From positions 7,673 to 71,672 of the IMG/VR virus record IMGVR_UViG_3300030102_007483: a DNA stretch of 64,000 nucleotides; one strand, 5' to 3'. This document shows positions 1,384 to 62,867 of this stretch, piece by piece. The position numbers and the translations under genes are program-made. Origin of the DNA: a virus. The notes beneath the pieces are model-generated. The model was not told the origin of the DNA. It ran no database searches and was given only the letters and a program-made list of their open reading frames with translations. Numbering within the stretch: position 1 is the stretch's first letter; the number at the start of each line of letters is the position of its first letter.

Positions 1384-1588
1384 GTCGTAGCAGTACTTAT
1401 AATACCGGAACCGGAGGTTGATAGTGGAGGGGGGGAGGGTACCCCTGTTGTGCGCCGTACCACCCATAATGCCGAGAGCGCTTTCCCGACCGGGCCTATT
1501 CCCCAACTGCCTTACCGCTGTGGTATTACCACCTTGCTACGAAAGGGCTTACGTGGTACTTTTCTGATCCAACCCATTGAGGACCACT

Positions 1589-49030: not shown

Positions 49031-50980
49031 ATGATTCAACAGCCTCACATAAGCTACATGATAGCCAACCCCGATAATCCTGATTTTTTGGAGCGCATCG
49101 AATCGTTGGTTCCGGGGTCACTTGTCTACGGTCGGGCATCAGGTGCTTACCGGCGAAGCAGGCTAAAAAACTGTGATCCGGATACTAAAAATAACTTGTC
49201 TATCTGTGAGATTTACGCACCTATCCACTGTGCTTGGCTGGTAGAAAGAATCTTGTGTCACAACAAGTTGAGTTTCTCTTCGATCGCTACATCGTATTCG
49301 GACAGGGTGATCACGGCTTGGTCAAACGAACCGATGAGGCGAGACTCTTTGGAGCGTCAAGGCAGATCGAGTTGCCGCAGATCTGTAGTTCGAGGTGAGC
49401 TTCGTCGAGACGTGCTAGACATCGCGACACCATATCAGTTTATGGGTGTTGAATGGTGTCGAACAAGACCTTGGGCAATGAACGTTTGGTCTTGCGGCTC
49501 GGGTAAAACACTGGGCGCTATCATGTCGGCTCTCTGTAGGAGCGAGTCAAAGGAGTCCGTTCTTGTCGTGTGCCCTGCAAAAGCCCGCCATGTTTGGTGG
49601 AGTCAGGTACAGGAGTATACTCACATCAAACCATTTAGAGTGAAACCTGCGTCGGAGAAAAGGAAGTCAGATCAGTCGTTCGACGAATACATGCGAGAGT
49701 GCAACATATTGAACGCCTACAACAAGGTGCCGTTTGTAATTGTTGGTGCTGAGTCTTTGCCTGACAACATGGATTTGATTCGAAAATTAGAACCTAAGAT
49801 TCTTATTCTAGATGAGATACATACTCATGGTAGTCGGAAGAGATGGACTGCAATTCATCAAGCCGATGGGTCTGTGTCCTTCAAACGAAAGAAGACTGCG
49901 GCAAGCAACAGAGCGAATTCAAAGGTAGACCGGGAGAATCGCGCGGTTGCTGCAATGGATCTTAGTCGGATGAAGAGTTTGAATCTTCGTATAGGTTTGA
50001 CAGCTACTCCATTGGATGACGGTCGTCCAAGAAGATTGTGGTCGCAGCTTGATCTGTTGTCACCGGGTGGATTTTCTCACAGCTACTCTAATTTTGCGCA
50101 TCGATACTGTTCTGCGAGACCGGGTCAGTTTGGTGGTTTAGACGATACCGGCAGTAGCAACCTCGAAGAGTTGAAAGCTCGATGCTCCTTTTTTGTCCAT
50201 GAGGTACCGTACTCGGAATCTCATGCATCACTACCTGATACTCGAGTTCAGGTCATGTATTTGAGTTCTTCGGAACTGAATCGTGCGGAGAGGTGGAGTG
50301 AAGATCAAACGTTTGGTCAAGCAACAAAGGATTTTGTACGAGAAGCAAAAACAAATCCTCTTGCCCGTGAGCGGGTTGTAGAGGCCCGTCTTTCAGAAGC
50401 GTGCAGTCGGAAACGTAAGTACGTGGTGGGTGAAGCCATCGAAGGTCTGAAGGGAGGGGGTAAGGTCGTCATCTTTACCGCTCGGAGGCGCGAGACAGAG
50501 CTTTGGGAGTATGATCTGCGTCGTGCTTTGAAGAAGGGTGATGAGGCCTTAGGCGAGGTCCCAGTTTGGATGGCACACGGGGGTGTGTCTGAGACTGAGA
50601 GAGATCAGATGATCGATGCCTTTAGGGAAGCCGATGGTCCATGTTGTCTAATCGCAACTGGCCAAAGTGTCGGTACAGGTGTCGACGGCATGCAGACTGC
50701 GGATCTCGCCATTTTTGCCATGCTTCCGTGGAAGCCCGGAGATTTTGTGCAATGGAAGGGTCGGTTTGATCGACTTGGGGGAAGCCCAACCTTGCTCAAA
50801 GTAGTCGTCGCGCAGGGCACCTATGACGAAAGAGTCGTAGAGATACTTGTTGAGAAGTTTGGTCCTATCGAATCATTTTTAAAGGCCGATGAACTCGATG
50901 GTCTGGGGCAGAAGCTTCTGGGAATGGAGAACGAAGAGGCACTTGTGAGCAGCATCATCAGCAAACTGGAGGTTGTGTAA
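49031..50980 (+). CDS. SNF2-family (SF2) helicase/ATPase
   Basis: CGSGKT, LVVCPA, LDEIH, LTATP, LWSQL, KVVIFT, GTGVDGMQ, QWKGRFDRLG. Confidence 0.92.
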   Translation: MIQQPHISYMIANPDNPDFLERIESLVPGSLVYGRASGAYRRSRLKNCDPDTKNNLSICEIYAPIHCAWLVERILCHNKLSFSSIATSYSDRVITAWSNEPMRRDSLERQGRSSCRRSVVRGELRRDVLDIATPYQFMGVEWCRTRPWAMNVWSCGSGKTLGAIMSALCRSESKESVLVVCPAKARHVWWSQVQEYTHIKPFRVKPASEKRKSDQSFDEYMRECNILNAYNKVPFVIVGAESLPDNMDLIRKLEPKILILDEIHTHGSRKRWTAIHQADGSVSFKRKKTAASNRANSKVDRENRAVAAMDLSRMKSLNLRIGLTATPLDDGRPRRLWSQLDLLSPGGFSHSYSNFAHRYCSARPGQFGGLDDTGSSNLEELKARCSFFVHEVPYSESHASLPDTRVQVMYLSSSELNRAERWSEDQTFGQATKDFVREAKTNPLARERVVEARLSEACSRKRKYVVGEAIEGLKGGGKVVIFTARRRETELWEYDLRRALKKGDEALGEVPVWMAHGGVSETERDQMIDAFREADGPCCLIATGQSVGTGVDGMQTADLAIFAMLPWKPGDFVQWKGRFDRLGGSPTLLKVVVAQGTYDERVVEILVEKFGPIESFLKADELDGLGQKLLGMENEEALVSSIISKLEVV

Positions 50981-51153
50981 TGGACTTGAGCGATGAACGA
51001 TTGCATCGAAGGCGGGTACCGTGGAAAGCTTTGACGAGAGAGGGGTACGAGCCGCGAAAGGTGATGCTCGAAGCCCAGAAACTCGGAATGTGGAAGCTTG
51101 CGACAAGCGCCAAACAAAGAATCGACAATGAGAAACGAGTTGTCAATAAATGA
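50980..51153 (+). CDS. Small hypothetical protein (57 aa, MDLSDERLHRRRVPW...)
   Basis: Not in the ORF track; SD GGAGG; TAATG and ATGA overlaps fill the gap exactly. Confidence 0.7.
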   Translation: MDLSDERLHRRRVPWKALTREGYEPRKVMLEAQKLGMWKLATSAKQRIDNEKRVVNK

Positions 51154-52136
51154 ATAAGATACTGATCGACGCGGGGAGAAGTAGTCGCGGGTGGTCACGG
51201 ATAGGATCATTCTTCCGTTGCCCCCAACTTTTTGCCTATCAAAACAGACTGAATATGAGTTTGATTCCTGCGAGCGCATTGACGCGTGGGAGTATGGGTC
51301 ATGTGATCCAAGCGCATCAGCATGCAATCTGGGGCGCTCGGACTGCATCTGGTGTTTGGGTGGACGAAACATGGTACGACGACCCCACTGTTTTTCTCGA
51401 TCCTGAAGATGCCGTACACCTTTGGTGCGATACCAACGGTGGGCATGAGCATCTTGATCGAATGGTCGAAACGTTTCATCAATATATGAGTCAGTACCCC
51501 GAGTGTCCCGGCGATGTGATTGCTGTAGAATATCCAATTACTGCAGTGTTGGGAACAAAGGATAATGAATGGGGATTGTGGGTTGTTCACAAAGATGATC
51601 AACATTTCGATCGTCGGGTGGCATATGTAAAAGCATTCGATGGCGGGAAGATCATACCTGCCCCCCTGAACTGTCCGGGTCACCCAGACTGCGGATCAGC
51701 TATCGTTTTGACTAGACGTCTCGATATGGTCATCAAAGACAGCTCTGGTCGGATATTTATATGGGATCACAAGCATCAGGCGAGGGTCGCTGTGAACGGA
51801 AGTGTTGATGGCTACGCCGCAGATGGTGGCTTTGCTGCCTTTAGAATCATGGGTAAACAACTTTACGGTAATGATTTCGGAGGGATTGCTCTCAACCTTA
51901 TTCAAACCCAGCAGCCATGGAAGGTAGCAAGACCTCTTGTTCCTTCGACACCTCACAGAGATAAGCATTTTGCCGACATGCTATGGAGAGCAGAGCATCA
52001 ACTGGCGAGGCTCGATTTGGAGCTACCTGAGTTCTGGAACTGGCCAAAAGTACAGCACGAGACTGCATGCGTCGGTAGATACGGTGCATGTGCCGGAATC
52101 AAAATGTGTTTCCATGGCGAAGCGGCCACAATCTGA
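51150..52136 (+). CDS. Cas4/AddB-like PD-(D/E)XK exonuclease with Fe-S staple
   Basis: CPQ, RGSMGH, VE, RLD, WDHK and C-terminal C-x6-C-x5-C. Confidence 0.85.
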   Translation: MNKILIDAGRSSRGWSRIGSFFRCPQLFAYQNRLNMSLIPASALTRGSMGHVIQAHQHAIWGARTASGVWVDETWYDDPTVFLDPEDAVHLWCDTNGGHEHLDRMVETFHQYMSQYPECPGDVIAVEYPITAVLGTKDNEWGLWVVHKDDQHFDRRVAYVKAFDGGKIIPAPLNCPGHPDCGSAIVLTRRLDMVIKDSSGRIFIWDHKHQARVAVNGSVDGYAADGGFAAFRIMGKQLYGNDFGGIALNLIQTQQPWKVARPLVPSTPHRDKHFADMLWRAEHQLARLDLELPEFWNWPKVQHETACVGRYGACAGIKMCFHGEAATI

Positions 52137-52199
52137 CCGAAAGTAATCGCCGAGACTTGATACTATTCAAACCCCAAAGCAACCAATATTGGAGAAACC

Positions 52200-53177
52200 A
52201 TGACCAGTGCAGAACTGCCTACCGTAATGATTACGGTTTACGGCAAACCAAAACAAAAGAAAACCAGTGACGCATTAGCGGCATTTCCTACCGCTCTTTT
52301 TTGTGGAGTTCCATCTGCAATTACACTTGTCGCACAGAATGAGTTGGGATTTACGCCTACGGTTCATCCGGATTCACCCAAGAACTTAAATGAGCTTGTG
52401 GGAATGTTGAGAATGATGGCCACTGATGGATCAGCAAAACCTTACGGTGCTGTTGTTGTAGATGATCTGAGTCATCTTTGTCAGAGGTCGATGCTTGAGT
52501 GGACCGAATCGGCACCTTCAGGTCGTAGCGGGAAAAAAGATCGGTTCTATCCATATCAGCAGTTGAATCAAATGCTGCTTGAGATTGCTCACATTTCGAG
52601 GCACTTGGGCGTTCACTTACTCATGAACTTCCATGAACGGACTCCCGGCACAAATGCTGAAGGTCGTTTTTGTCCGGGCGGCCCAGATGTGCCATCGCGT
52701 AATCAGATCGAAACACTGCCATCATGGTGTGACATAAACGTTCGGGCGATGGTTGATCCAAATTACCCGGATCCTTGGTTCCCCAGTATTTATTATTGCG
52801 ACCCGACAGACCCCGATTGGGTGACTGGAGACAGAACTGGAGTATGCACTAAGAAGACTCCCGGTAACATTCGAGAGATTTTGCGGGCAAGCGAGAGCAA
52901 CTATCACCTTGCTCGGTTGCCGGGTCTTGAATGGCAGGATGAGGTTGCTCAATCCGTAGCAGACGATATGGTAGGTGGTGCCGCAGTTCAGGATGCAATC
53001 CAGTCTGCGGTGTCAGGTCGGACTGACAACCCTCTACACCTCAGATGGGCGTGCCAAGATGGCATCGCTCGTGGTGTCTTGTTGCAGCAGGCGAAAACGT
53101 CACTGTTTGATTTCGAGATCAAAGAAACCAAGACAGCAAACTCTCCGTCTATGCCACCTCCACCACCTAACAAATAG
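52200..53177 (+). CDS. Sak4-like (AAA_24) recombination ATPase
   Basis: ITVYGKPKQKKT (deviant P-loop), VVVDDLS, FHER, WCD; lies between the nuclease and SSB. Confidence 0.75.
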   Translation: MTSAELPTVMITVYGKPKQKKTSDALAAFPTALFCGVPSAITLVAQNELGFTPTVHPDSPKNLNELVGMLRMMATDGSAKPYGAVVVDDLSHLCQRSMLEWTESAPSGRSGKKDRFYPYQQLNQMLLEIAHISRHLGVHLLMNFHERTPGTNAEGRFCPGGPDVPSRNQIETLPSWCDINVRAMVDPNYPDPWFPSIYYCDPTDPDWVTGDRTGVCTKKTPGNIREILRASESNYHLARLPGLEWQDEVAQSVADDMVGGAAVQDAIQSAVSGRTDNPLHLRWACQDGIARGVLLQQAKTSLFDFEIKETKTANSPSMPPPPPNK

Positions 53178-53224
53178 TTTCAACCCCCCGGTCATAAGAC
53201 CACAACCCAAAAAAGGAGCCATTC

Positions 53225-53821
53225 ATGGGCATCAAAATTTCTGGTAACGCATTTCAAGGTATTAGTTCGTTGGGATCTGCCGTCCCTAACGCGGGCTTTT
53301 ATCCTGTCTCAATCGTACGTATTGAGACTGGAGCAAACGACAAACCCGGAACTCGGAGGTTTCACGTCCAGTTCGATAATGGGTTCAAGATGTTTACGTT
53401 TGTGAGCCTGCCATACGACAACAGCGGCAACCTACTGCCGGGCCTCAGTGACAAGCAGGTACGTGGTCGAATGGCCGCTCTTCGAACTATTCTCGAGTCT
53501 CTTGGTTACACAAAAGAAAATATCGAGACTGCAGATGAGATCAATGATGCATGGTTCTTGGGAACTATGAACAATGGTCGAGTAGCATACGTTGAGTTTG
53601 AGCCGGGTCAGAAAGGAGTTGCAGGGTCATACAACGAGATCAAACGATTCCTTACTAAAGAACAATTCGAAGCTTTGAGTGAAGTAAGCAACGAAAAACC
53701 TGTAGAGACCGTGGATCAGAAACAAGCCGCGCCCGAACCGACAACTAATGGTGCCCCAGTACCTCCGTCTGGAGTGTCTTTGCCGCCGCCTGTTAGTGCT
53801 GCCCAGAACATCGTGGGCTGA
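53225..53821 (+). CDS. Single-stranded DNA-binding protein (DUF669-like OB fold, putative)
   Basis: VPNAGFYPVSI...YNEIKRF plus a flexible tail; follows Sak4; SD AAGGAG. Confidence 0.7.
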   Translation: MGIKISGNAFQGISSLGSAVPNAGFYPVSIVRIETGANDKPGTRRFHVQFDNGFKMFTFVSLPYDNSGNLLPGLSDKQVRGRMAALRTILESLGYTKENIETADEINDAWFLGTMNNGRVAYVEFEPGQKGVAGSYNEIKRFLTKEQFEALSEVSNEKPVETVDQKQAAPEPTTNGAPVPPSGVSLPPPVSAAQNIVG

Positions 53822-53824
53822 TTA

Positions 53825-56605
53825 GTGGCATCCTTCAACCCCAAAGAATGTGGCGCGCGGTGTGACGTCTGTCCGTTGGGGCCAGAAGGACCACTTCATA
53901 AAGATGAGTGGCGGCCTGTGGGTGGTGAGTTCCATCGACAGGCTGCCATCATCGCTGTAGCTGAATCCCCCGGAGCAGATGAGGTTCAGCACGGGAGACC
54001 TTTAGTTGGTCGAGCAGGTACAGAGTGGGCGAACGCTCTGGTGCAGGCTGGAAAAGGTAGAGTGGACGTCGACTTGGATCACGTCATCTCATGCAAGCCG
54101 CCGGGACAAGACTCTGGGTCGTGGCGTCGTATGGAAAAGGCACTCGACAGACTCAACAGAAGACGACTGAAGAATGGTGATGATCCTCTGCCTCACCCAG
54201 TCGAATGTTGTCGGCCTCGCCTTATGAGTGTGGTCGAGAAGTATGAAAACATTATTACCTTAGGTAAAACTGCAACGTCAGTATTGACGGGTCAATCAAG
54301 CAGCATCCAAAGTTTGCGAGGTGGCCCGATGCAGATTGACGACGACTTTGATTGGGTGTCCGATCGTGGGACGAGAAAAATTATGCCCATGCTGCACCCG
54401 TCGTTTATTTTAAGGTCACCGAGTTGGAGGCATGTATTGCACTCTGACGTGGCCAAAGCATTTAGGTGGTTCGACAATTGTTTGCGCTGGACATCGCCAG
54501 ATAGTCTGATCAACCCATCGCCTGATGAACTTGCTGACTGGTTGTCCCAAAGCGCGCCGTTCTGGGCTTACGACGTTGAGACAGACGGGATCGAACCCTT
54601 AGAGTGCAATCTGCGAACAATCGCGATTGCTATCCCTGACATGGATGAAACGGGTAAAGCTGCTCGGTCAAACGTGTATCAAAATGCGAAGGCCGTAGGT
54701 GTCGGTCTGCTGTCGGTTGATGGTCGCACACGAATCTACAACCCTGAAGATGAGAGAAAGATTTTGGATCTTCTCCGTCAGGCATTTACAGACGGACGAG
54801 TATGGGTTGGTCACAACGCAGGATACTACGACAGGATGGTGGTCGAGACTCAACTCGGAGTCACACCCTACCCGCTTGTGGACACTCTTTTTCATGCACG
54901 TTTTAGGGCCCCAGATCTGCCGAAAGGGTTGAAGACAATTGGTTCAATACTGACCGATGTCGAGCGTTGGGAAACAACAGAAAAGGGAACACACATATCG
55001 ACCGGTAGTCAGGATGACGATGAGCTACTGCGATACAACATCGTTGATTCTACAGTCAACGCACGGATCGTTGTGCCCTTGATGGACGCTTCTGCTGCTG
55101 CTGGAGCATTCGAAAGCATATCACCAGACATCAAACCTTCTGGTTGGTCAATCGCTCGACCGTGGAATCTAAATGAAATCGACCATGCCACACAAGAGAT
55201 GTGTGTTGGAATGCACAAGTCGGGTGTTTGGGTCGATCAAAAGCTTCGTTCATTGTTGGAAGCGGAGTATGATGTATCAGTACGAAAACGCTACAAGAAC
55301 CTGCAGTCACTGGCTCAGTGCGTTGGGTTGTCTAAATTGGACTCAGACTCGGTGAACGAGTTGAACCCCGGTAGCGCCGATCAAATTCGTAATCTGCTCT
55401 ATGAGCGTTGGGGCTTGGGTATACCTGCATCAATGGATGCGCGGGAGTTCTACACCGAGACGGGCGCTCCGGGTACTGGTGACGCGGTGCTGAGGGCGCA
55501 TCTTGCCTCAGGTCGATTGACGGAAGATCAAGAATCATTTGTTCGTGAGTTGAGACTGTATCGGAGGGAGAAAAACAAAATCTTGGGAACCGTTTTGATT
55601 CCACTGCGCAGACGCGATCAAGACTCTAAAAAAGGATTGGTCCATGAAGATGGTCGTGTCCGATCAACATGGAATGCTCACGTAACAAGTGTGGGCCGAC
55701 TGAGTAGTAGCGGACCAAACTTACAGAATATCGGTAACCGAAAAGGTCAGGGAAGACTGAAAAAGATTTTTGCCGCTCCTCCCGGACGAATACTTGTTGG
55801 AGCCGATCTCGATCAAGCGCACCTGAGAATCACGGCTTGTTATTGGCAAATACCCCGTTTGCTTGAATGCTTTGCAACTGGAAAGGATCCCCACAATCTT
55901 CTTGCTTACGACGTTTTTGGTAAAGACTTTAAGAATGCAAGCGGATGGGGTCCGGATGGTTTCAGCTTGAACCGCAAGCCTACAGGCGGTGAAGCAAAAG
56001 CTATGCGCGATGTAATGAAGACCTTTCGGTACGCGTCAATCTATTGGGCAGACCCTACGACTGTATGGCAGGTACTGACTAGCACAGAGACAGATGATGG
56101 TCGTATGCCATACCTGAAGTTCGAGACGAGGGAAGTAAGGCATTTCCACAACAAGTGGCTCGAGGCAGAGCCTGAGTGGGAGGTGGCGTGGAAGAACATG
56201 CTGCAGCTTTATGAGAAGCAGGGCCATATGTTTGAGCCGGTGTTCGGTCGCAGGTCAGGGCCACTGTCAGACGGTAAAAAGAATGAGGTCGTAAACTTCC
56301 CAATCCTCGCGGCAGAATCGTCGATTATGAGAATCGCAGAACAAGAGGTAATCTCGGCGTTCCCGTTTGACTACGCGGGTCGTGGAACTGGAATGATCCA
56401 TCAGTGCCATGATTCTATAGCAGTTGAAATTGAACTGCCATCGGGGCTACCTCAAGACTGGCAGCCGGTATCCGGTGAACCGTTGCCACCACAAATAGAG
56501 CATGCACGAAAAACTATCGAATCATGCATGACAGTTTCTCTTCCGGGATGGGAAGTCCCAATGACTGCTGAGGCCGACGTCGGTCGCAGCCTTAAAGATG
56601 TTTGA
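53825..56605 (+). CDS. polA: Family A DNA polymerase with N-terminal family-4 UDG-like domain and 3'-5' exonuclease
   Basis: UDG: CxxC, AESPG, GRPLVG, C, C, HPS. Exo: YDVET, GHNAGYYD, YNIVD. Pol: GRLSS..PNLQNI, DLDQAHLR, RDVMKTFRY...Y, HD. Confidence 0.95.
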   Translation: MASFNPKECGARCDVCPLGPEGPLHKDEWRPVGGEFHRQAAIIAVAESPGADEVQHGRPLVGRAGTEWANALVQAGKGRVDVDLDHVISCKPPGQDSGSWRRMEKALDRLNRRRLKNGDDPLPHPVECCRPRLMSVVEKYENIITLGKTATSVLTGQSSSIQSLRGGPMQIDDDFDWVSDRGTRKIMPMLHPSFILRSPSWRHVLHSDVAKAFRWFDNCLRWTSPDSLINPSPDELADWLSQSAPFWAYDVETDGIEPLECNLRTIAIAIPDMDETGKAARSNVYQNAKAVGVGLLSVDGRTRIYNPEDERKILDLLRQAFTDGRVWVGHNAGYYDRMVVETQLGVTPYPLVDTLFHARFRAPDLPKGLKTIGSILTDVERWETTEKGTHISTGSQDDDELLRYNIVDSTVNARIVVPLMDASAAAGAFESISPDIKPSGWSIARPWNLNEIDHATQEMCVGMHKSGVWVDQKLRSLLEAEYDVSVRKRYKNLQSLAQCVGLSKLDSDSVNELNPGSADQIRNLLYERWGLGIPASMDAREFYTETGAPGTGDAVLRAHLASGRLTEDQESFVRELRLYRREKNKILGTVLIPLRRRDQDSKKGLVHEDGRVRSTWNAHVTSVGRLSSSGPNLQNIGNRKGQGRLKKIFAAPPGRILVGADLDQAHLRITACYWQIPRLLECFATGKDPHNLLAYDVFGKDFKNASGWGPDGFSLNRKPTGGEAKAMRDVMKTFRYASIYWADPTTVWQVLTSTETDDGRMPYLKFETREVRHFHNKWLEAEPEWEVAWKNMLQLYEKQGHMFEPVFGRRSGPLSDGKKNEVVNFPILAAESSIMRIAEQEVISAFPFDYAGRGTGMIHQCHDSIAVEIELPSGLPQDWQPVSGEPLPPQIEHARKTIESCMTVSLPGWEVPMTAEADVGRSLKDV

Positions 56606-56612
56606 GGTTTGT

Positions 56613-57041
56613 ATGAAATCGCAATGGTTCCTAGCTCACAGTAAAAAAGATGAACCCGAAGAAATTGAACTCTGGTGCAAAGAGATCGGCGAGAATCTTA
56701 CAGGTGATGGATGGGAGGCGTTTGTCATCTCTGGTCGCGATGACTACGCCAATCGATCCGCCGCAATGGGTGGGTGGAAAGCTTGGTGCCGGGACGTACC
56801 TTCTGGTACAGACTATGCTGGTCATCCGATGTACCACGGTGTCATCGTTCCCGCAGATTCATTGATAGAAGAACCGACCGTGGGCAAGGCTACCGCACAA
56901 ATCATCGAGGGTTTTCTGAGGGAAGGCAAGCATGCATATACATGGTGCCCCGATTCTAAAAAGTTCAAGCAAATATATTCTGTCGAAACACTTCCAAATG
57001 ATGACTGGGTGGCTTGGGCAAAACTTGTGTTTGAGTCTTGA
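56613..57041 (+). CDS. TIR/nucleoside 2-deoxyribosyltransferase-like fold protein (putative)
   Basis: WFLAHSKKD, YHGVIVP, VGKATAQIIEGFLREGKHAY follow the flavodoxin-like NDT/TIR pattern; SD GAGGT. Confidence 0.5.
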   Translation: MKSQWFLAHSKKDEPEEIELWCKEIGENLTGDGWEAFVISGRDDYANRSAAMGGWKAWCRDVPSGTDYAGHPMYHGVIVPADSLIEEPTVGKATAQIIEGFLREGKHAYTWCPDSKKFKQIYSVETLPNDDWVAWAKLVFES

Positions 57042-57065
57042 CACTGCGGTACATTCGTGTAAAAA
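57038..57065 (+). promoter_or_regulatory. Putative sigma70 promoter of the Rad50-like gene
   Basis: TTGACA-16-TAAAAA. Confidence 0.45.
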
Positions 57066-57097
57066 ACTTTTAACCCAAAGCAACTAACGGAGAAACC

Positions 57098-59095
57098 ATG
57101 AGACCTTACGTCAAACATGTCTACAGTAATTTAAAATCACCAATGCCTGAGGGAGAAGCTTGGCAGGTTGAACTGAGTCAAAGAACACTTTTTGTTGGCT
57201 CTAATACGAGTCATAAGAGCAGCGTCATTCAGTCTGTTGAGTTGGCACTTGCAGGTTCAGCAGACGACATCTTTGGTCGTAGTGCCGTGTCCGATGCTGC
57301 GCTGTTGCTGACCCTCGCCCCCAAAGATGAGCTTGGTATCACGGCGACGTTGTCCAACTCGAAAACAGCATCCTTCAATGTAAAAAGGGAGGGGACAAAG
57401 GTTAAGCGACCAACACATGATGGTCCCGGTGCGGGATCGCTTGTTCATCGCTCTGTCGCTGCCGCTCTTTCGGGGTCGCCCGCATCTGCTCGTAAAGCTT
57501 TCCTTGGGTGGTCGGGTGGCAACGTTGATCTCAATCGTGTGCTTCAATATCTTCCTGACAGCATGCACTCAAAGTATAAGGACATCGCACAGTTCAAGGG
57601 CAGGGGTAAGACTGCGGTTGAGACTTTGATTGATGTTGCTGCGTATGCAGGACAGAAGCAGCGTGAAGCGGCAAAGGAGGCCAAGGGCGCAGAGATTCTT
57701 CTTAACGGAATCAACAATGAGCTTGATGCCCGTCCTGACGATGATGACATGGTTCGCATGAGGTCAGCGGTAGCTCAGGCAAAGATGATTCTAGATCGGT
57801 CGGTCAGGGCTGGGAAGCAAGGCATGACGCTTGAGGAGAAGAATAAAAAGATAGACAGCATCAAGTCGATGCTTGAATTTTTGGAGAGTAAAAGATTGAA
57901 CGCTGTCCATGAACGAGACCAACTTCAAAACTCTCTGCCGTCGAAAGGTGAGAACGTTGATCACGCCATCGCAATTGTTGATGTCGCAGTCAAGCATGGT
58001 CTCGACGCCTGCCCTGTTTGTAGTAGTAAAGTTGGATTGGATCACTTGAAGAACTGCCAGTCATTTTATCAACAACAAGCAGATCAATGGCAGCGGCAAT
58101 CCAAAGGAACAATGGAGTCCATTCAGAACTTCGAAAACAATATCCGTACTTACGAAGCTGATATTGCTATTCATAGAGAGAAACTTCAAGAGACTGAAGC
58201 GGTCAAACCAAATCAGAAAGATCCGAACGTAATCCCAGTTGTCGATGCGACGGCAAGACTTGAGGCGGCCATGGATGCCATGACCAAGATGGATCATGCT
58301 GTTGCACAATGGGACAGCTTTCAACGGGCAAGAGGTAAGGTGATCCGCATGAAGGAAGATGTGGAGACCTATAAGTCGATGAAGAAAGAATGTGAGTCAG
58401 CGATCGGAATGTTGTTGAATGACCAGACAAAGACTTTCTCAAACAAGGTGCAAAAGTATCTGCCCGAAGATTGGAAGTTCAACATTGAGCTTATTGACGG
58501 TGATCGGGAAGTCTTTCGTATGGGTATTATGAGGGGCGACAAGCTACACGCCGCACTGTCCGGGGCTGAGTGGACCTCTGTTGTCACTGCTATATCGATG
58601 GCTGTTGTCGAAGGTCTGGGAGAGGATCAACCTGCTGTGTTGATTCCTGAGGATAGAGCGTGGGATGGAAAGACACTCGCCTCTGTGATGCGTGGGTTTA
58701 GTAACTTCGATGGTCAAGTTGTAATGGCGAGCACTACACGTCCTGTTGGAAAGACACCCAAGGGCTGGACGATTGTTGAAATGGATAAGCTGATTGAGTC
58801 TTGGACAACGTCCGAAGTTGACGAGGAGGAGGCCCCAGTTGAGGACGCTCCGACTGTTAGCAAAACAAGTATCAATCATGCCAGCGGTGGGTTTAGGGTA
58901 ACAACTCGAACAGCGATCATGCTCGAAACATTGGGTTACCGAACAGATGTTATTCAATCGATGTCTCGCGATACTGTCGCAGAGCTTATCAGACAGCAGA
59001 TTCCGCCAGAGAATGTTTGTGTGACTGAGGACGGAGGCTTTTATATTCGTAAGGGCGGCAACGTCTTGCCCATGCCACCCGCACCAAAAGTATAG
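57098..59095 (+). CDS. Rad50/SbcC-like ABC ATPase with coiled coil and Zn hook
   Basis: LFVGSNTSHKS, central CPVC, signature LSGAE, VLIPED...WD, QVVMAST. Confidence 0.85.
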   Translation: MRPYVKHVYSNLKSPMPEGEAWQVELSQRTLFVGSNTSHKSSVIQSVELALAGSADDIFGRSAVSDAALLLTLAPKDELGITATLSNSKTASFNVKREGTKVKRPTHDGPGAGSLVHRSVAAALSGSPASARKAFLGWSGGNVDLNRVLQYLPDSMHSKYKDIAQFKGRGKTAVETLIDVAAYAGQKQREAAKEAKGAEILLNGINNELDARPDDDDMVRMRSAVAQAKMILDRSVRAGKQGMTLEEKNKKIDSIKSMLEFLESKRLNAVHERDQLQNSLPSKGENVDHAIAIVDVAVKHGLDACPVCSSKVGLDHLKNCQSFYQQQADQWQRQSKGTMESIQNFENNIRTYEADIAIHREKLQETEAVKPNQKDPNVIPVVDATARLEAAMDAMTKMDHAVAQWDSFQRARGKVIRMKEDVETYKSMKKECESAIGMLLNDQTKTFSNKVQKYLPEDWKFNIELIDGDREVFRMGIMRGDKLHAALSGAEWTSVVTAISMAVVEGLGEDQPAVLIPEDRAWDGKTLASVMRGFSNFDGQVVMASTTRPVGKTPKGWTIVEMDKLIESWTTSEVDEEEAPVEDAPTVSKTSINHASGGFRVTTRTAIMLETLGYRTDVIQSMSRDTVAELIRQQIPPENVCVTEDGGFYIRKGGNVLPMPPAPKV

Positions 59096-59100
59096 CCGAC

Positions 59101-59322
59101 GTGAACTGTGAGCATTGCGGACAAAAAACGAGGGTAGTTGATTCTCGCAACGGTGATTCAACTGCCTCGTTTCGTGGACAAGGACTTATCCGTGAGCATG
59201 TGTCTTGGTACACAAGCGATTGGGTATGTCGTCAACGCAAGTGTTTGAGTTGCGGCCGTGTTTCGGTCACTGTTGAGATTTCAATCACTGACCTTAACAA
59301 CGGCTGGCAACGAAAGACTTAG
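59101..59322 (+). CDS. NrdR-like N-terminal zinc-ribbon protein (no ATP-cone)
   Basis: CEHC...TRVVDSR...RQRKCLSCG...TVE. Confidence 0.8.
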   Translation: MNCEHCGQKTRVVDSRNGDSTASFRGQGLIREHVSWYTSDWVCRQRKCLSCGRVSVTVEISITDLNNGWQRKT

Positions 59323-59684
59323 TGTTCTTCGACTGAGTATTTATTGATTGTACGGAAACTGAAGGATTTATTTGTGCCTTCAATTGTGATTAGCCGTGGA
59401 ATCATACGGCTTCCGTATCCACCCTTTGGAGCTTCTGTGACCTGCTTGAGAGCCGCATTAAACGATGCGTCACCAACAAAATTGAGTCGAACCTCACCTG
59501 CGTTTGTAATCAAATGTAAGGTTCGATGTTTTGGTGGAGGCGGTGGAGGGGCTTCAGCCTTGGGCTTTGGCGCAGCCTTTGGTGCCGATTTCTTCGCGGC
59601 AGTTTTCTTTGGCGCAGTTTTTTTCGGGGCTGCCTTTTTCTTGGGTGCAGCCTTTGCCTTCGCTGGTTTTTTTGTCGGGGCCAT
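59319..59684 (-). CDS. Protein with histone H1-like Lys/Ala/Pro-rich N-terminus
   Basis: SD GGAGA; (A)APKK repeats; own extended -10 TGTTATACT (59718-59710). Confidence 0.75.
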   Translation of the reverse strand: MAPTKKPAKAKAAPKKKAAPKKTAPKKTAAKKSAPKAAPKPKAEAPPPPPPKHRTLHLITNAGEVRLNFVGDASFNAALKQVTEAPKGGYGSRMIPRLITIEGTNKSFSFRTINKYSVEEH

Positions 59685-59737
59685 GATCTCTCCGTTATCG
59701 GGTGAGCTTAGTATAACAGGATGTTGTGTCTTGGTGT

Positions 59738-59767
59738 TTGACACGATGCTTGGTGGCCCGATAGAGT
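59738..59767 (+). promoter_or_regulatory. Putative sigma70 promoter
   Basis: TTGACA-18-TAGAGT. Confidence 0.55.
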
Positions 59768-59773
59768 TGTCTC

Positions 59774-59856
59774 GTCTGGTACTCATTCTTCCCATGAATG
59801 GTCCGGCTTTGGGTGGCATCGTCTGAGTCCTTCTCTCAGGCGGTGCTTTCTCGTCT
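59774..59856 (+). ncRNA. Candidate small RNA or attenuator leader with two pyrimidine-looped hairpins
   Basis: CATTC-TTCCCAT-GAATG; GCATCGTCTGAG-TCCTTCT-CTCAGGCGGTGC (12 bp, two G-U pairs) followed by TTTCTC. Confidence 0.45.
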
Positions 59857-59895
59857 TGATGTTTCGTAAATTATTTGACTTTTAAGGTGGTGAGC

Positions 59896-62010
59896 ATGGA
59901 AAGTGATGGCTCAGCGACGGTAGATGAACCTCGCAGTGCAGCAAATGCTGAGCCCAGTGAAGAAACTAACAACAGTCATCGAGACATTTTGTCTCGATTG
60001 TTAGCGTCCCTTCAAGCTGGTGGTCGTGAAGAACAACGTGCGGCGTGGGCTGCAATACAAGATCCCGATGTGATGGCGGCTCTTGCCGATGGATGGCGAG
60101 CAAATGAAGCAGAGGTCAGTGCTGCGTTCTCAGTGATTGAAACTGTTCCGGGACAGGTGCAGAGAACACGCAACATGAGGTCGGCAGTCAGACGGTTGGC
60201 TGAAGAGCGTAGTCGTCGAGATGCAGATCGATTGATTGATCAGCTTGAAGAACAACTTGGTCAACCCCAAACGCTCGCGTCACTTTTGGGTGGTGGTGCG
60301 CCACCCCCATCTGTGCTGCCAATACAAACACTTGAGACACTTCACATGCCCCGTGGTTTCGACATGGATGTGTCAGGTGTCTACCGGCTATCAGCCTCGG
60401 TCGATGGTACTCTTAACCGCACGAGGATTGCTCCTGCTCCCATTTTTATAGCTGGTCGAACGGTCGATGTGCATTCGGGTGAGGCGAAGCGTCAGGTCAT
60501 CTGGAGGGGTCCAAGCGGGTGGTGCTCACGGGTGATCGACCGCAGGACAATTCTTGACGCGTCAAAGATTATTCTTCTTACAAATCTTGAGGCACCGATC
60601 AATTCAAACACAACAGGTCAGATGGTTCAGTACCTCGCCGACTTCGAGGCTGATAACAGTCATCGATTCCCTGTCGTTCGTTCTGCTGCTCGTATGGGTT
60701 GGCAGCCTGATGGTGGGTTCCTGTTGCCTGATGTGTTTTACGCTGTGAATGATGAGGCAAGCTCCAACTTTGCGCTTACCCCGCCAAGCGGGTTGGAGAC
60801 ACTTTCTTCTGGATGGACCACTGCTGGCACATGGGAAGGGTGGCTCGAAGCTATGGGGCTTGTCTCATCATTCCCCTACATGTACATCGCCATGTACGCT
60901 GGGGCAGCGGCTCCACTGCTTTCTGTGTTGCGTATCCCCGGATTCGTCGTTGACTTCAGTGGTGAAACAAGTGGAGGAAAGACAACGGCACTCCGATTTT
61001 CCGCGTCGGTTTGGGGAAGACCTGCTGAGTCGTACCCAACTGCAATGTATTCGTGGGATGCCACAAAGGTTTGGATTGAACGGACTAGTGGATTTCTTCA
61101 CAATCTGCCGTTGATTCTCGACGAGACTAAGCGAGCAAGGCACCCAAGGATTGTGCGTGATGTCATTTACGACTTTTGCCAAGGACAAGGTCGTGGTCGT
61201 GGGTCCGTCGATGGTACAAGGCATACAGAGTCTTGGCGTTCAGTTCTAATCAGCAGCGGTGAGGGCGCGGCAACATCGTTTTCGCAGGACGCAGGAACGC
61301 GAGCGCGAGTGCTCAGCTTGAAAGGTAAGCCGCTTGGCAGTGATGTTGATGTCGGCTCAAGAGTGAGTGAAGAAGCGCAGATTATTTTGGCAACAAACTA
61401 CGGCCATCTTGGCAGAAGACTTGTGCAATATCTTGTGGCCAATCGTGCGAGTCATGATGACATCCGTCAGATCTTTCGGCAGGCCAGAGACAAGTACGCA
61501 AGTATTGCACGGACTGCTGTTGCTCGTAGACATGCAGGTCACCTTGCTGTCTTGGAAGTTACGGCCGCGATTGTGCACCTGTTGGGTGTACCACAACCTG
61601 ATGTTGATCCGTTTGGGTATCTGATCGAGTCTCAGGAAGCTGCTGCTGCAGACGCAGACAGACCGTTGGCTGCCTTGCAAGACATGTTGTCTTGGTGTGC
61701 GACACATCAAACAAGGTTTTGGGGGCGTGCTGACCTTGATAACAATGGGCGTCCTCGCGCACCGAATGCCGGTTGGGCGGGCTCTTGGGGCTCAGGCGAA
61801 GACTGGGACTTCATTGCAATATCAACGCTCACCTTCAAAGAGGTGATCAGAAATATCGGACATGACCCAGATGAAATTATCCAACGGTGGGTGGCTCGTG
61901 GGTGGCTGAACACAGGATCAGGAAGGCATCGTACCCGAGTTGTCAGGATCGATGGGGCACCTACCCGATGCTACTGTATTGATAAGACAGCAAGTGACTA
62001 TGCTCTTTAG
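59896..62010 (+). CDS. DUF927/Cch-like replicative helicase without a recognisable primase domain
   Basis: ARMGW, TWEGW, FSGETSGGKTT, SVWG, LPLILDE, GQGRGR, LISSGE, GTRAR, NYGH; C-terminal winged-helix-like end. Confidence 0.88.
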   Translation: MESDGSATVDEPRSAANAEPSEETNNSHRDILSRLLASLQAGGREEQRAAWAAIQDPDVMAALADGWRANEAEVSAAFSVIETVPGQVQRTRNMRSAVRRLAEERSRRDADRLIDQLEEQLGQPQTLASLLGGGAPPPSVLPIQTLETLHMPRGFDMDVSGVYRLSASVDGTLNRTRIAPAPIFIAGRTVDVHSGEAKRQVIWRGPSGWCSRVIDRRTILDASKIILLTNLEAPINSNTTGQMVQYLADFEADNSHRFPVVRSAARMGWQPDGGFLLPDVFYAVNDEASSNFALTPPSGLETLSSGWTTAGTWEGWLEAMGLVSSFPYMYIAMYAGAAAPLLSVLRIPGFVVDFSGETSGGKTTALRFSASVWGRPAESYPTAMYSWDATKVWIERTSGFLHNLPLILDETKRARHPRIVRDVIYDFCQGQGRGRGSVDGTRHTESWRSVLISSGEGAATSFSQDAGTRARVLSLKGKPLGSDVDVGSRVSEEAQIILATNYGHLGRRLVQYLVANRASHDDIRQIFRQARDKYASIARTAVARRHAGHLAVLEVTAAIVHLLGVPQPDVDPFGYLIESQEAAAADADRPLAALQDMLSWCATHQTRFWGRADLDNNGRPRAPNAGWAGSWGSGEDWDFIAISTLTFKEVIRNIGHDPDEIIQRWVARGWLNTGSGRHRTRVVRIDGAPTRCYCIDKTASDYAL

Positions 62011-62219
62011 TCGCAAGTCCAGCATTTGCCCTGATTGCAAACTTTGCGCAGGGCTTTTGCTGTCGCCCAAACTGGTCCGTGTTGGCGTTTACATGATCGG
62101 CATTTTACATAAACGATTTGCGTCGAACCTGTTGCTGAGAAGGTGAGGCGGTATGAGTGAAACTTGGACAGTTCCTGTTGTGCGTCTGATGCTGGCTGTC
62201 GATTCCAAGATAAAGACAT
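62007..62219 (-). CDS. Small zinc-finger protein
   Basis: SD AGGAGG; CRSC...CWTC. Confidence 0.7.
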   Translation of the reverse strand: MSLSWNRQPASDAQQELSKFHSYRLTFSATGSTQIVYVKCRSCKRQHGPVWATAKALRKVCNQGKCWTCD

Positions 62220-62315
62220 TGGTCCTCCTGTTACTAACGTACCACACTGGTACGTGATGCGCTACTGTTTCGCGGTTGGGTTGTGACACACAAATGAATC
62301 AGGTAGAGTGAGACC

Positions 62316-62867
62316 ATGCCAGACGACACTACAGTTCAGATGCCCAGTCCGCCAAACATTGAAGAGGCACCTGCAAGCCAATCATTACATATGGTTCCAA
62401 CATCAGTCGTCCCCGCAGGAGAGCAGGAGGTAGCGGCGATGTTGGCAGAGCAGGCACGATTCAATGACGAGCCCGAAATGAAAGCTGTCGCGGGTCAGTT
62501 GTTGGCGGCCGGTCACACGGTGAGGTCAACGTCGAGGAGACTCGGAATACGAGCATCGACAGTTTGGTCGTGGTCGAAGGAGCCAAACATCGCAGAGGCA
62601 ATGGCGGCAGGCGTAGAGAGGCGTAAGTCTGCGCTCGGACAGGGACTTGAAGAGGCTGCGCATCAGGCGCTCGGTGCATTGCTCGAGGTCGCTAATGATG
62701 TGGGCGCTCAGCCAAAGGACAGAGTTAAGGCATCCGAGGCGATCCTTGACAGGTGTGGGATCACGCCAGACGTCAATGTTGCCAGTACTCAGGTTGGAGT
62801 GACCGTTGATGTTGACTTTGACGAGAGGTTGGCGCGCATTGTAGCCGGAGCAAAAACTGAAACGTGA
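62316..62867 (+). CDS. terS: Terminase small subunit (putative)
   Basis: HTH (RSTSRRLGIRASTVWSW) followed by DRVKASEAILDRCG, a common TerS oligomerisation motif. Confidence 0.7.
   Translation: MPDDTTVQMPSPPNIEEAPASQSLHMVPTSVVPAGEQEVAAMLAEQARFNDEPEMKAVAGQLLAAGHTVRSTSRRLGIRASTVWSWSKEPNIAEAMAAGVERRKSALGQGLEEAAHQALGALLEVANDVGAQPKDRVKASEAILDRCGITPDVNVASTQVGVTVDVDFDERLARIVAGAKTET

What the first reader, a model, noticed from the sequence alone, without database searches (positions are those of the whole stretch)
53825..62010. Candidate undescribed primase-free replisome: open-gate UDG-PolA, NDT/TIR-fold protein, lone Rad50 and DUF927 helicase
Seen: no TOPRIM or AEP motifs in any ORF here, and the DUF927 protein has only a helical N-terminus. 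Established: DUF927 helicases are often fused or adjacent to primases, and in SCCmec the Cch2 helicase pairs with CCPol, an A-family polymerase acting as primase. Inference: either this full-length PolA primes for itself, or priming is recombination-dependent (Cas4-like exonuclease, Sak4, SSB, SNF2). The genome continues beyond the window, so a primase could lie outside it.
Basis: inference. Interest (0 to 1): 0.8.

Follow-up and report, generated by a model that had tools for sequence, protein, structure and literature searches.

The report
Phage replication module lacking recognisable primase
An uncultured 72-kb phage carries a conserved DNA-copying gene set (polymerase, helicase, recombination proteins) with no recognisable primer-making enzyme, but nothing shows that its unusual polymerase makes its own primers.

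Summary
Window 49031-62010 encodes SNF2 helicase, Cas4-like nuclease, Sak4, an OB-fold SSB, a UDG-exo-PolA with His at the sugar gate, a 147-aa Rossmann-like protein, a hook-bearing Rad50-like ATPase and a DUF927/Cch-type helicase. The contig is 71,672 bp (CheckV 100%). Neither the 7.7 kb outside the window nor any of 76 ORFs matches a primase family. Seven primase-related HMMs gave nothing in six frames. Twelve near-complete relatives lack Prim-Pol and Toprim_2. Pfam scans of four further genomes show no primase family among the families listed.

The self-priming reading is not supported. The CCPol-MP-Cch2 analogy fails three defining features. The one complete relative with the normal Glu gate also shows no primase, so His does not track primase absence. 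"Open gate" is untested.

Most likely this is a helicase-polymerase-recombination module primed by host functions and by recombination. A hidden divergent primase remains possible, because most unannotated ORFs were not folded.

This scan reached the same conclusion earlier on another genome (e1-6090524). The family is large: 476 cluster representatives at E<=1e-30.

The parts
49031..50980 (+). SNF2-family helicase (649 aa)
   Evidence: Pfam SNF2-rel_dom E 4e-11 and Helicase_C E 9.2e-11. Found in all five fully fetched His-gate relatives at 55-75% identity.
51150..52136 (+). PD-(D/E)XK (Cas4-like) exonuclease (328 aa)
   Evidence: PDDEXK_1 E 0.008, below cut-off. phrog_1218 exonuclease E 6.5e-7. 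PDDEXK_1 matched 2 ORFs in the G016+G021 scan, best E 7.9e-17. Conserved in all relatives.
52200..53177 (+). Sak4-like RecA-fold annealing protein (325 aa)
   Evidence: phrog_124 'Sak4-like ssDNA annealing protein' E 3.1e-8. AAA_24 E 5e-5.
53225..53821 (+). OB-fold SSB of the DUF669/PrgE kind (198 aa, disordered tail from residue 157)
   Evidence: AlphaFold2 with 41 sequences, mean pLDDT 79.7. Foldseek PDB: PrgE 8s4t_A E 1.9e-5. BFVD: 94 matches at E<=0.001, several named DUF669 or SSB.
53825..56605 (+). UDG - 3'-5' exonuclease - family A DNA polymerase (926 aa); motif A DLDQAHLR (His at the E710 position), motif B Tyr at 762, motif C HDS
   Evidence: Motif A with His in 63 of 63 relatives that cover it, HDS in 58 of 58, exo motifs conserved (66-row alignment).
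56598..57041 (+). 147-aa conserved alpha/beta protein of unknown role. The start is either 56598 (8-nt overlap with PolA) or the Met at 56616.
   Evidence: No Pfam, PHROG or PDB sequence match. AlphaFold2 pLDDT 89.4. VIA-align best Z 7.1, then SEFIR, TIR, STING-TIR, NDT and ThsB at Z 5-6.6. Foldseek found nothing at E<=0.001. It follows PolA in His-gate relatives and in 5 of 7 Glu-gate loci.
57098..59095 (+). Rad50/SbcC-like ABC ATPase with a CxxC hook (665 aa) and no Mre11/SbcD partner
   Evidence: AAA_23 and SMC_N in relatives. Metallophos 0 matches in six frames.
59101..59322 (+). 73-aa NrdR-type zinc ribbon without an ATP-cone; present in only some relatives
   Evidence: Zn_ribbon_NrdR E 6.7e-7. 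Found in 25 loci at 85% coverage or more.
59344..59826 (.). Doubtful ORF. The + frame (160 aa) is low-complexity Gly/Phe/Ala, and a 166-aa frame lies on the opposite strand. Probably non-coding or variable filler.
   Evidence: Translation. A similar frame occurs in only 5 close relatives. No family hit.
59875..62010 (+). DUF927 / Cch - SaPI Rep type helicase (711 aa; the database aa from Met8) with a lineage-specific N-terminal domain of about 90 aa and a C-terminal Cch HTH
   Evidence: PDB 8tch_A E 1e-31 and 5dgk_A E 4.1e-16. phrog_1139 'DNA primase' matches only profile positions 427-891 of 895. N-terminal alignment. All 19 homologues of residues 30-175 are DUF927 proteins of 460-714 aa with no primase domain recorded.

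Best explanation
This is the conserved replication-recombination module of a large clade of uncultured tailed phages with genomes of about 65-80 kb.

Shown:
- A DUF927/Cch-SaPI-Rep-type helicase, a UDG-PolA with conserved proofreading motifs, a DUF669-like SSB, Sak4, a Cas4-like nuclease, an SNF2 helicase and a hook-bearing Rad50-like ATPase are syntenic across relatives down to about 45% PolA identity.
- No recognisable DnaG/TOPRIM or AEP primase is found.

Inferred mechanism:
- The helicase loads itself at an origin, as SaPI Rep and Cch do. PolA with the SSB carries out strand synthesis.
- The first primers come from host functions: host DnaG, or host RNA polymerase transcripts/R-loops.
- Later rounds start from invading 3' ends made by the nuclease/Rad50-like/Sak4/SSB/SNF2 set (recombination-dependent replication).

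The His at the sugar gate and the HDS motif are old, lineage-wide changes in the polymerase pocket. Their effect is unknown, and they are not tied to the absence of a primase.
For: Gene identities.

Synteny: 69 related loci, five whole relatives and the distant His-gate loci L098-L104.

No primase found:
- The contig is 71,672 bp with CheckV completeness 100.
- Pfam over 76 ORFs gave 39 families at E<=0.01. The 25 shown (down to E 0.0017) include no primase family.
- Full per-protein Pfam listings at E<=0.01 for 38 of these ORFs also show none.
- Six-frame HMM searches of the contig at E<=10 found nothing for Prim-Pol, Toprim_2, Zn_ribbon_DnaG, PriCT_2, PriCT_1, Toprim_4 or DNA_primase_S.
- Prim-Pol and Toprim_2 each gave 0 of 12 relatives that are 91-100% complete.
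- Pfam over 128 ORFs of G008+G011 gave 23 families, all shown, none a primase.
- Pfam over 126 ORFs of G016+G021 gave 28 families, 25 shown, none a primase.

[quoted passage not shown] Sak4 with a cognate SSB is a known phage recombination pair (PMC5928155, title and start of abstract only).
Against: - No host is known, and no interaction of a DUF927 helicase with DnaG has been shown. DnaG normally docks on DnaB-type helicases (recalled).
- No clear iterons lie downstream of the helicase gene. Only two-copy short repeats were found, so the origin is not located.
- HMM absence is weak evidence in a phage where most ORFs match nothing. Of 76 ORFs only a minority have any family, and only two unknown proteins were folded.
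- 14 Pfam families (E between 0.0017 and 0.01) and 3 were not displayed.
- A phage that invests in its own polymerase, helicase and SSB usually carries a primase as well. Kazlauskas et al. call the exceptions 'notable'.
Confidence: 0.45

Rival explanations
1. A divergent phage primase is present but unrecognised. It would be either a small or novel fold among the unannotated ORFs, or a domain inside a larger protein such as the 2847-aa virion protein, the SNF2 N-terminus or the Rad50-like C-terminal extension.
For: Most ORFs of this phage match no family. [quoted passage not shown] The protein-atlas features of helicase residues 1-170 gave a weak lead (score 0.81) to a cluster carrying PriCT_2, a helical domain that accompanies AEP primases.
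Against: Genes shared by all six fully compared His-gate genomes are few. The replication-side ones are all assigned except the 147-aa protein and a 209-aa DNA-binding-like protein. The left-arm ORFs (248, 382, 406 aa and others) are not conserved, so none can be a clade-wide primase. PriCT_1 and PriCT_2 HMMs found nothing in six frames. The N-terminal domain's 19 homologues carry no primase domain. Atlas look-alikes of the giant protein's conserved part are unnamed viral clusters and LPD38 polyvalent-protein clusters.
Confidence: 0.25
2. Replication needs no dedicated lagging-strand primase. Synthesis starts from recombination intermediates or nicks and proceeds by strand displacement. The displaced strand is copied after annealing or invasion promoted by Sak4, the SSB, the Rad50-like protein and SNF2.
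For: A full recombination set sits immediately upstream and downstream of PolA and stays with it even in Glu-gate relatives at about 36% PolA identity. PDDEXK, Sak4, PolA, the 147-aa protein and the Rad50-like protein are present in L091-L095 wherever the locus reaches them.
Against: Known recombination-dependent systems such as T4 still use a primase for the lagging strand (recalled). The first round on an injected genome still needs a 3' end. Nothing in the sequence tests this.
Confidence: 0.15
3. The polymerase makes primers itself, alone or with a conserved partner (the 147-aa protein or the SSB), as CCPol-MP does. The His gate and HDS motif would then be adaptations for initiation.
For: - His at the gate and HDS are invariant in the close family (63 of 63 and 58 of 58).
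- HDE is almost absent across the wider family (2 of 150).
- The 147-aa gene stays next to PolA across His- and Glu-gate lineages.
- An A-family polymerase can become a primase with a small partner (PMC7581432; PMC10061031 abstract).
Against: - The complete Glu-gate relative G016 also shows no primase family, so the His does not track primase absence.
- CCPol keeps E710 and F762 and lacks the exonuclease domains. This enzyme keeps conserved exo motifs.
- The downstream partner is not an OB fold.
- The OB-fold SSB is of the DUF669 kind that pairs with Sak4.
- His is not a smaller side chain than Glu, so an 'open' gate is not implied.
Confidence: 0.1

Closest known systems
SaPI Rep and SCCmec Cch self-loading helicases (DUF927; PDB 8tch, 5dgk)
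   Same: DUF927 core (E 4.7e-39) and the C-terminal Cch HTH. Direct sequence matches to 8tch_A (E 1e-31) and 5dgk_A (E 4.1e-16).
   Different: It sits in a 72-kb lytic-looking phage beside its own polymerase. It has an extra conserved N-terminal domain of about 90 aa that is found only in this lineage. No iterons were found next to the gene. SaPIs carry an AEP primase, and none is found here.
SCCmec CCPol-MP-Cch2 primase-helicase operon (Bebel et al. 2020, PMC7581432; Rice 2023, PMC10061031)
   Same: An A-family polymerase gene is followed by a small gene and, further on, by an MCM/SF3-like helicase with a Cch-type HTH. No classical primase is present.
   Different: The polymerase is full length with UDG and conserved exo domains. 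It has His and Tyr where CCPol keeps E710 and F762. The small protein is alpha/beta, not OB. The helicase is of the Cch (DUF927) type, not Cch2. Four other genes, counting the doubtful ORF, lie between polymerase and helicase.
UDG-PolA fusions: N4-like cluster 17, SPO1-like, SP15/YerA41-like (Czernecki et al. 2023, PMC10201439; Missoury et al. 2026, PMC13697223)
   Same: [quoted passage not shown] The UDG catalytic His motif is lost in part of the family, as in N4-like enzymes.
   Different: At most 23% identity to any GenBank phage polymerase over 80% or more of its length. His replaces the gate Glu, and HDS replaces HDE. For the SP15-like, SPO1-like, N4 and T7 phages, the legend of Fig. 4 in PMC13697223 says it charts helicase/primase co-occurrence; no primase is recognisable here.
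Sak4 with its cognate SSB (HK620; PMC5928155, title and start of abstract seen)
   Same: A Sak4-like gene is directly followed by an OB-fold SSB whose fold matches DUF669-named viral proteins.
   Different: Here the pair is embedded between a Cas4-like nuclease and the replicative polymerase. A second, classical SSB (PF00436) sits in the variable left arm.
Phages listed as lacking a primase (phiKZ-like, HGTV-1, Pseudomonas phage 119X; Kazlauskas et al. 2016, PMC4889955)
   Same: They have their own polymerase and helicase but no detectable primase. The authors offer the same two readings: a missed divergent primase or non-canonical priming.
   Different: Different polymerase and helicase families. 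Their Supplementary file 1 could not be opened, so I cannot say whether any relative of this clade is in it.

Membership tests
DnaG/TOPRIM primases | TOPRIM catalytic domain, usually with a DnaG-type zinc ribbon | tested here: not met
   Toprim_2, Toprim_4 and Zn_ribbon_DnaG gave 0 matches at E<=10 in six frames of the contig. No such family appears among the Pfam hits shown for 76 ORFs. Toprim_2 gave 0 of 12 relatives. HMM sensitivity limits apply.
Archaeo-eukaryotic primases (AEP / Prim-Pol) | AEP catalytic domain, often with PriCT-1/2 | tested here: not met
   Prim-Pol, DNA_primase_S, PriCT_1 and PriCT_2 gave 0 matches at E<=10. Prim-Pol gave 0 of 12 relatives. Two sub-threshold hits in other relatives (19.7 and 11 bits) fall in Arg-rich or low-complexity translations, one with in-frame stops.
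CCPol-MP-Cch2 module | Polymerase domain only, with the exonuclease domains lost | tested here: not met
   UDG and exo domains are present and the exo motifs are conserved in 66 sequences.
CCPol-MP-Cch2 module | Small OB-fold ssDNA-binding partner encoded after the polymerase | tested here: not met
   The 147-aa protein models as an alpha/beta three-layer fold at pLDDT 89.4. Its best fold matches are TIR, SEFIR and NDT.
CCPol-MP-Cch2 module | Cch2-type helicase (Primase_Cterm/D5_N) | tested here: not met
   The helicase is DUF927, the Cch type. The distinction is stated in PMC7581432.
CCPol-MP-Cch2 module | De novo DNA primer synthesis by the complex | not testable with these tools
   This needs biochemistry.
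DUF927 / Cch - SaPI Rep helicases | DUF927 ATPase core plus a C-terminal Cch HTH | tested here: met
   PF06048 E 4.7e-39. PF18662 is 25.2 bits here (cut-off 26.2), and E 7.7e-9 in relatives. PDB 8tch and 5dgk.
DUF927 / Cch - SaPI Rep helicases | Binds an origin (iterons) next to its own gene | tested here: inconclusive
   Only two-copy repeats of 10-15 nt occur in 61800-62450.
UDG-PolA fusions | Family-4 UDG domain fused N-terminally to the exo and pol domains | tested here: met
   PF03167 E 2.5e-10. PDB family-4 UDGs 1l9g and 1vk2 at about E 3e-15 over residues 23-213.
Rad50/SbcC | Walker A, coiled coil with a CxxC zinc hook, signature motif, Walker B | tested here: met
   Invariant K40, C305, C308, S488, G489, E491 and D519 in 28 sequences. 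Rad50 hook fragments at E 5.2e-4 and 0.0039. AAA_23 and SMC_N in relatives.
Rad50/SbcC | Mre11/SbcD phosphoesterase partner | tested here: not met
   Metallophos gave 0 matches at E<=1 in six frames.
TIR / NDT (flavodoxin-like) fold, for the 147-aa protein | Fold match standing clearly above background | tested here: inconclusive
   Best Z is 7.1 (7m5h_B). SEFIR, STING-TIR, NDT and ThsB score Z 5-6.6, under the tool's own mark of about 8. Foldseek found nothing at E<=0.001. The list is nevertheless rich in TIR and NDT entries.
TIR / NDT fold, for the 147-aa protein | Catalytic Glu of TIR NADases or NDT | not tested
   No structure-based residue mapping was done. Residues kept across His- and Glu-gate homologues include D49, T99 and K111, while H14 is not kept.
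DUF669 / PrgE-like SSB, for the 198-aa protein | OB fold matching known members | tested here: met
   PrgE 8s4t_A E 1.9e-5, probability 1.00. DUF669-named viral models at E about 1e-5.

The most novel reading that the evidence does not exclude
A very large clade of uncultured phages replicates without either classical primase family. Primers would be made by the His-gate/HDS family A polymerase working with a conserved partner. The best candidate partner is the 147-aa Rossmann-like protein, which stays beside PolA in both His- and Glu-gate lineages. That would be a third route to priming, related in principle to CCPol-MP but evolved independently in a full-length proofreading replicase.
Probability: 0.08. 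Interest if true: 0.9.

Novelty: new variant of a known kind. Interest (0 to 1): 0.42.

Why it matters
If the absence of a primase is real, a widespread group of environmental phages must start DNA chains in a way that is not yet described for a phage with its own polymerase and helicase. The possible routes are host DnaG working with an MCM-like helicase, transcripts, recombination alone, or a new primase.

The family is large enough to matter: 476 cluster representatives at E<=1e-30. It offers clean material for biochemistry. That includes a proofreading PolA with a fixed His at the sugar gate and Ser or Ala in place of the motif C Glu. It also includes a conserved small partner of unknown role and a hook-bearing Rad50-like ATPase without a nuclease subunit.

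As it stands, the result is a well-documented gap in annotation, not a demonstrated mechanism.

Tried and rejected
Primase in the 7.7 kb outside the window: rejected. Pfam and PHROGs on its ORFs found only a classical SSB and DUF3228.

Primase domain fused to the helicase: rejected at sequence level.
- phrog_1139 matches only its helicase half.
- All 19 homologues of residues 30-175 are DUF927 proteins of 460-714 aa. That search covered lengths 391-1245 only.
- The Atlas gave only a weak PriCT_2 lead at 0.81, which the HMMs did not confirm.

Split primase made of the 73-aa zinc ribbon plus the 160-aa ORF: rejected. The zinc ribbon is NrdR-type and patchy among relatives. The 160-aa frame is low-complexity and occurs in only 5 close relatives.

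Virion RNA polymerase as in N4 (same genome size, UDG-PolA, giant virion protein): not supported.
- The 2847-aa protein has no PHROG hit.
- No RNA-polymerase family appears among the Pfam hits shown.
- A naive motif B/C search found nothing.
- Atlas look-alikes are unnamed viral clusters or LPD38 polyvalent-protein clusters.

Primase fused to PolA in relatives: rejected. The 48 long representatives carry 84-688-aa insertions at a few recurring conserved sites, or C-terminal additions of about 380 aa. I read these as inteins, by inference. N-terminal extra sequence is limited to 130 aa in one of them, not tested against families.

Prim-Pol hits in G021 and G016: rejected as chance after reading the translations.

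Complex prediction with PolA residues 216-926 and the 147-aa protein returned 'no answer' (score 0.00). It counts neither for nor against binding.

Iterons after the helicase gene: none convincing.

The PDB profile search with the 147-aa family found nothing below E 0.2.

Gene contexts of most of the 150 polymerase representatives therefore could not be read, and the E-versus-H comparison rests on one complete Glu-gate genome plus six partial loci.

Supplementary files of PMC4889955 and PMC10201439 were not opened. They may list relatives or primase calls that bear on novelty.

Literature searches made: 'CCPol'+'Cch2'; 'DUF927'+'primase'; 'steric gate'+'UDG'+'phage'+'DNA polymerase I'; 'DUF669'+'Sak4'. 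In what I read of them (listings, the abstracts and passages named in this report) I saw no description of this clade or of a His gate. No other search for prior description was made.


Full report
WHAT IS THERE

The window is bases 7673-71672 of a single 71,672-bp IMG/VR virus record. It is classed as linear, with a CheckV completeness of 100. I found no terminal repeat.

The + strand from 49031 to 62010 carries a compact gene row:
- SNF2 helicase.
- A PD-(D/E)XK nuclease.
- A Sak4-like annealing protein.
- A 198-aa protein.
- A 926-aa UDG-exo-PolA.
- A 147-aa protein.
- A 665-aa Rad50-like ATPase.
- A 73-aa NrdR-type zinc ribbon.
- A doubtful low-complexity frame.
- A 711-aa DUF927 helicase with a Cch HTH.

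The phage is far from anything cultured. The best GenBank phage match to PolA that covers 80% or more of it is 23% identical or less.

THE UNKNOWNS IN THE MODULE

The 198-aa protein, folded with 41 relatives (pLDDT 79.7, tail disordered), is an OB-fold SSB. Foldseek gives PrgE of pCF10 at E 1.9e-5. There are 94 viral models at E<=0.001, several named DUF669 or SSB. DUF669-type SSBs are discussed together with Sak4 in PMC5928155; I saw only its title and the start of its abstract.

The 147-aa protein, folded with 43 relatives (pLDDT 89.4), is a three-layer alpha/beta fold. Foldseek finds nothing at E<=0.001. VIA-align gives Z 7.1 at best, followed by SEFIR, STING-TIR, NDT, TIR and ThsB entries at Z 5-6.6. 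It is not an OB fold.

The 665-aa protein has an invariant Walker A Lys, a CxxC hook, an LSGxE signature and a Walker B Asp. Its profile hits Rad50 hook fragments (E 5.2e-4 and 0.0039). Copies in relatives hit AAA_23 and SMC_N. No Mre11/SbcD-type phosphoesterase is found in six frames.

THE POLYMERASE

HMMER aligns motif A 'ADLDQAHLRI' with Klenow 'ADYSQIELRI', so the sugar-gate Glu is His. Motif B has Tyr at the F762 position, and motif C reads HDS.

In 66 aligned sequences (the window plus 65 from the related loci):
- The His motif is present in all 63 that cover it.
- HDS is present in all 58 that cover it.
- The three exonuclease motifs are conserved.
- The UDG 'HPS' His motif is replaced in about a third.

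A search of 1.84 billion cluster representatives found 476 relatives at E<=1e-30. Among the best 150 the gate residue is His in 74, Glu in 73, Asp in 1 and not covered in 2. Only 2 of the 150 have HDE.

I built a FastTree tree of 142 sequences on 789 columns. Nine representatives shorter than 700 aa were left out. With midpoint rooting, His/Glu needs two changes by parsimony. The gate residue therefore marks old clades. It is not a recent oddity.

Forty-eight long representatives carry 84-688-aa insertions at a few recurring conserved sites, or C-terminal additions of about 380 aa. I read these as inteins. The only N-terminal addition is 130 aa in one representative, which I did not test against families.

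IS THERE A PRIMASE?

The own contig:
- Pfam on 76 ORFs covering the contig gave 39 families at E<=0.01. The 25 displayed, down to E 0.0017, include no primase family.
- 38 of those ORFs were also listed in full at E<=0.01, with none.
- The only PHROGs named 'primase' are two families hit by the helicase. One of them aligns only to profile positions 427-891 of 895.
- Six-frame searches at E<=10 gave nothing for Prim-Pol, Toprim_2, Zn_ribbon_DnaG, PriCT_2, PriCT_1, Toprim_4 or DNA_primase_S.

Relatives:
- Twelve relatives at 91-100% completeness gave 0 of 12 for Prim-Pol and 0 of 12 for Toprim_2.
- Pfam on 128 ORFs of the two most distant of the five relatives fetched whole (PolA 59% identical) gave 23 families, all shown, none a primase.
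- Pfam on 126 ORFs of G021 (His gate, 45% PolA identity, terminal repeats) and G016 (Glu gate, terminal repeats) gave 28 families, 25 shown, none a primase.
- Two sub-threshold Prim-Pol hits in G021 and G016 (19.7 and 11 bits) lie in Arg-rich or low-complexity translations. One has in-frame stops. I discount them.

The helicase N-terminus: residues about 38-125 are a conserved, by-eye helical domain, followed by a Pro-rich linker. Its 19 detectable homologues are all DUF927 proteins of 460-714 aa. It was not folded.

WHAT IS CONSERVED

Across six whole His-gate genomes the shared non-structural genes are SNF2, the nuclease, Sak4, PolA, the Rad50-like protein, the helicase, a 209-aa protein with an N-terminal DNA-binding-like part and, in most, the SSB and the 147-aa protein. 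The left arm, with a classical SSB and ORFs of 248-406 aa, is variable, so it cannot hold a clade-wide primase.

Glu-gate relatives (PolA about 36% identical) keep nuclease-Sak4-PolA-147aa-Rad50-like. They show no SNF2 and no DUF927 helicase within 10 kb. The complete one, G016, has a DUF3987 helicase instead. G016 shows no Toprim_2, Toprim_4 or Zn_ribbon_DnaG, and no credible Prim-Pol. As far as one complete genome and six partial loci can show, primase absence is not tied to the His gate.

COMPARISON WITH CCPol-MP-Cch2

From passages of PMC7581432:
- CCPol is the polymerase domain only, with no exonuclease domains.
- CCPol keeps E710 and F762.
- Cch2 carries a Primase_Cterm domain, whereas Cch is the DUF927 helicase.

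From the abstract of PMC10061031: MP is an OB-fold SSB, and such pairs exploit truncated polymerase N-termini.

Here the polymerase is full length. The downstream protein is not OB. The helicase is of the Cch type. Three of the four defining features were tested and not met, and the fourth (activity) cannot be tested here. The module may still work without a classical primase, but it is not a member of that system.

MECHANISM

Shown: the parts list, its conservation, and the lack of a recognisable primase.

Inferred:
- The helicase loads itself, as SaPI Rep and Cch do.
- PolA with the SSB carries out synthesis.
- Primers come from the host (DnaG or transcripts).
- Later rounds start from recombination intermediates made by the nuclease, the Rad50-like protein, Sak4, the SSB and SNF2.

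Precedents are that the SaPI primase is not essential and that helicase-encoding viruses without a primase are thought to use host proteins.

My odds are:
- Host plus recombination priming: 0.45.
- Hidden divergent primase: 0.25.
- Recombination or strand displacement only: 0.15.
- Polymerase-based priming: 0.10.

Kazlauskas et al. already list phages with polymerase and helicase but no detectable primase, and they give the same two readings.

EARLIER WORK IN THIS SCAN

After my own tests, look-ups showed that the scan had met this polymerase and module on other genomes. One follow-up (e1-6090524) reached the same verdict: a primase-less module, and Glu-gate relatives that lack a primase too. 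Another (e1-6089441) reports that the His gate is fixed in a very large group and arose more than once. My tree needs two changes. These are AI notes, and I count only what I tested here.

VERDICT

- It is a new variant of known kinds of parts, and an open question rather than a mechanism.

Noticed in passing
P0004-P0152; L059 10001-13948: 48 of the 150 best PolA representatives are 1120-2034 aa long. They carry 84-688-aa insertions at a few recurring conserved sites (about query residues 331, 408, 632 and 737), which look like inteins. Three have C-terminal additions of about 380 aa. The PolA match of L059 is likewise interrupted.
   Followed up: partly
L084 10245-11231 (G008): In the most distant His-gate lineage about 3 kb is inserted between PolA and the 147-aa gene. 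It includes a ThyX thymidylate synthase (E 3.1e-56), which argues that those phages keep thymine in their DNA.
   Followed up: no
window 30806-39349: The 2847-aa virion protein is conserved mainly over residues about 1800-2500 and ranges from 2512 to 4861 aa in relatives. It carries one HExxH site at residue 1136. Atlas look-alikes include LPD38 polyvalent-protein clusters. It has no PHROG hit.
   Followed up: partly
window 1577-2206: A 209-aa protein is conserved in all six compared genomes and in G021. It has an N-terminal DNA-binding-like segment, an acidic/Pro linker and a Trp/Tyr-rich C-terminal domain of about 100 aa, with no family match.
   Followed up: no
window 59101-59322: A stand-alone NrdR-type zinc ribbon without the ATP-cone is present in only part of the relatives. 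It could interfere with host NrdR control of ribonucleotide reductase genes.
   Followed up: no
G016 52934-53611 (L117/L118): The Glu-gate relative uses a 416-aa DUF3987 helicase instead of DUF927. The polymerase-147aa-Rad50-like trio is therefore older than the choice of helicase.
   Followed up: partly
window 53825-54480: The UDG His motif (HPS) is replaced (for example by TFSPHY) in about a third of the 66 aligned relatives, while the Fe-S cysteines mostly stay. Glycosylase activity is probably not conserved across the family.
   Followed up: partly
L001 3159-3542 and 4421-5065 (outside the window): A classical SSB (PF00436, E 7.5e-31) and a DUF3228 protein sit in the variable left arm, so this phage has two SSB-type genes.
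   Followed up: no
window 62088-62115: Two copies of TTTACAT-N-A-N-CG lie 16 nt apart in the gap after the helicase gene. This is too little to call an origin.
   Followed up: no
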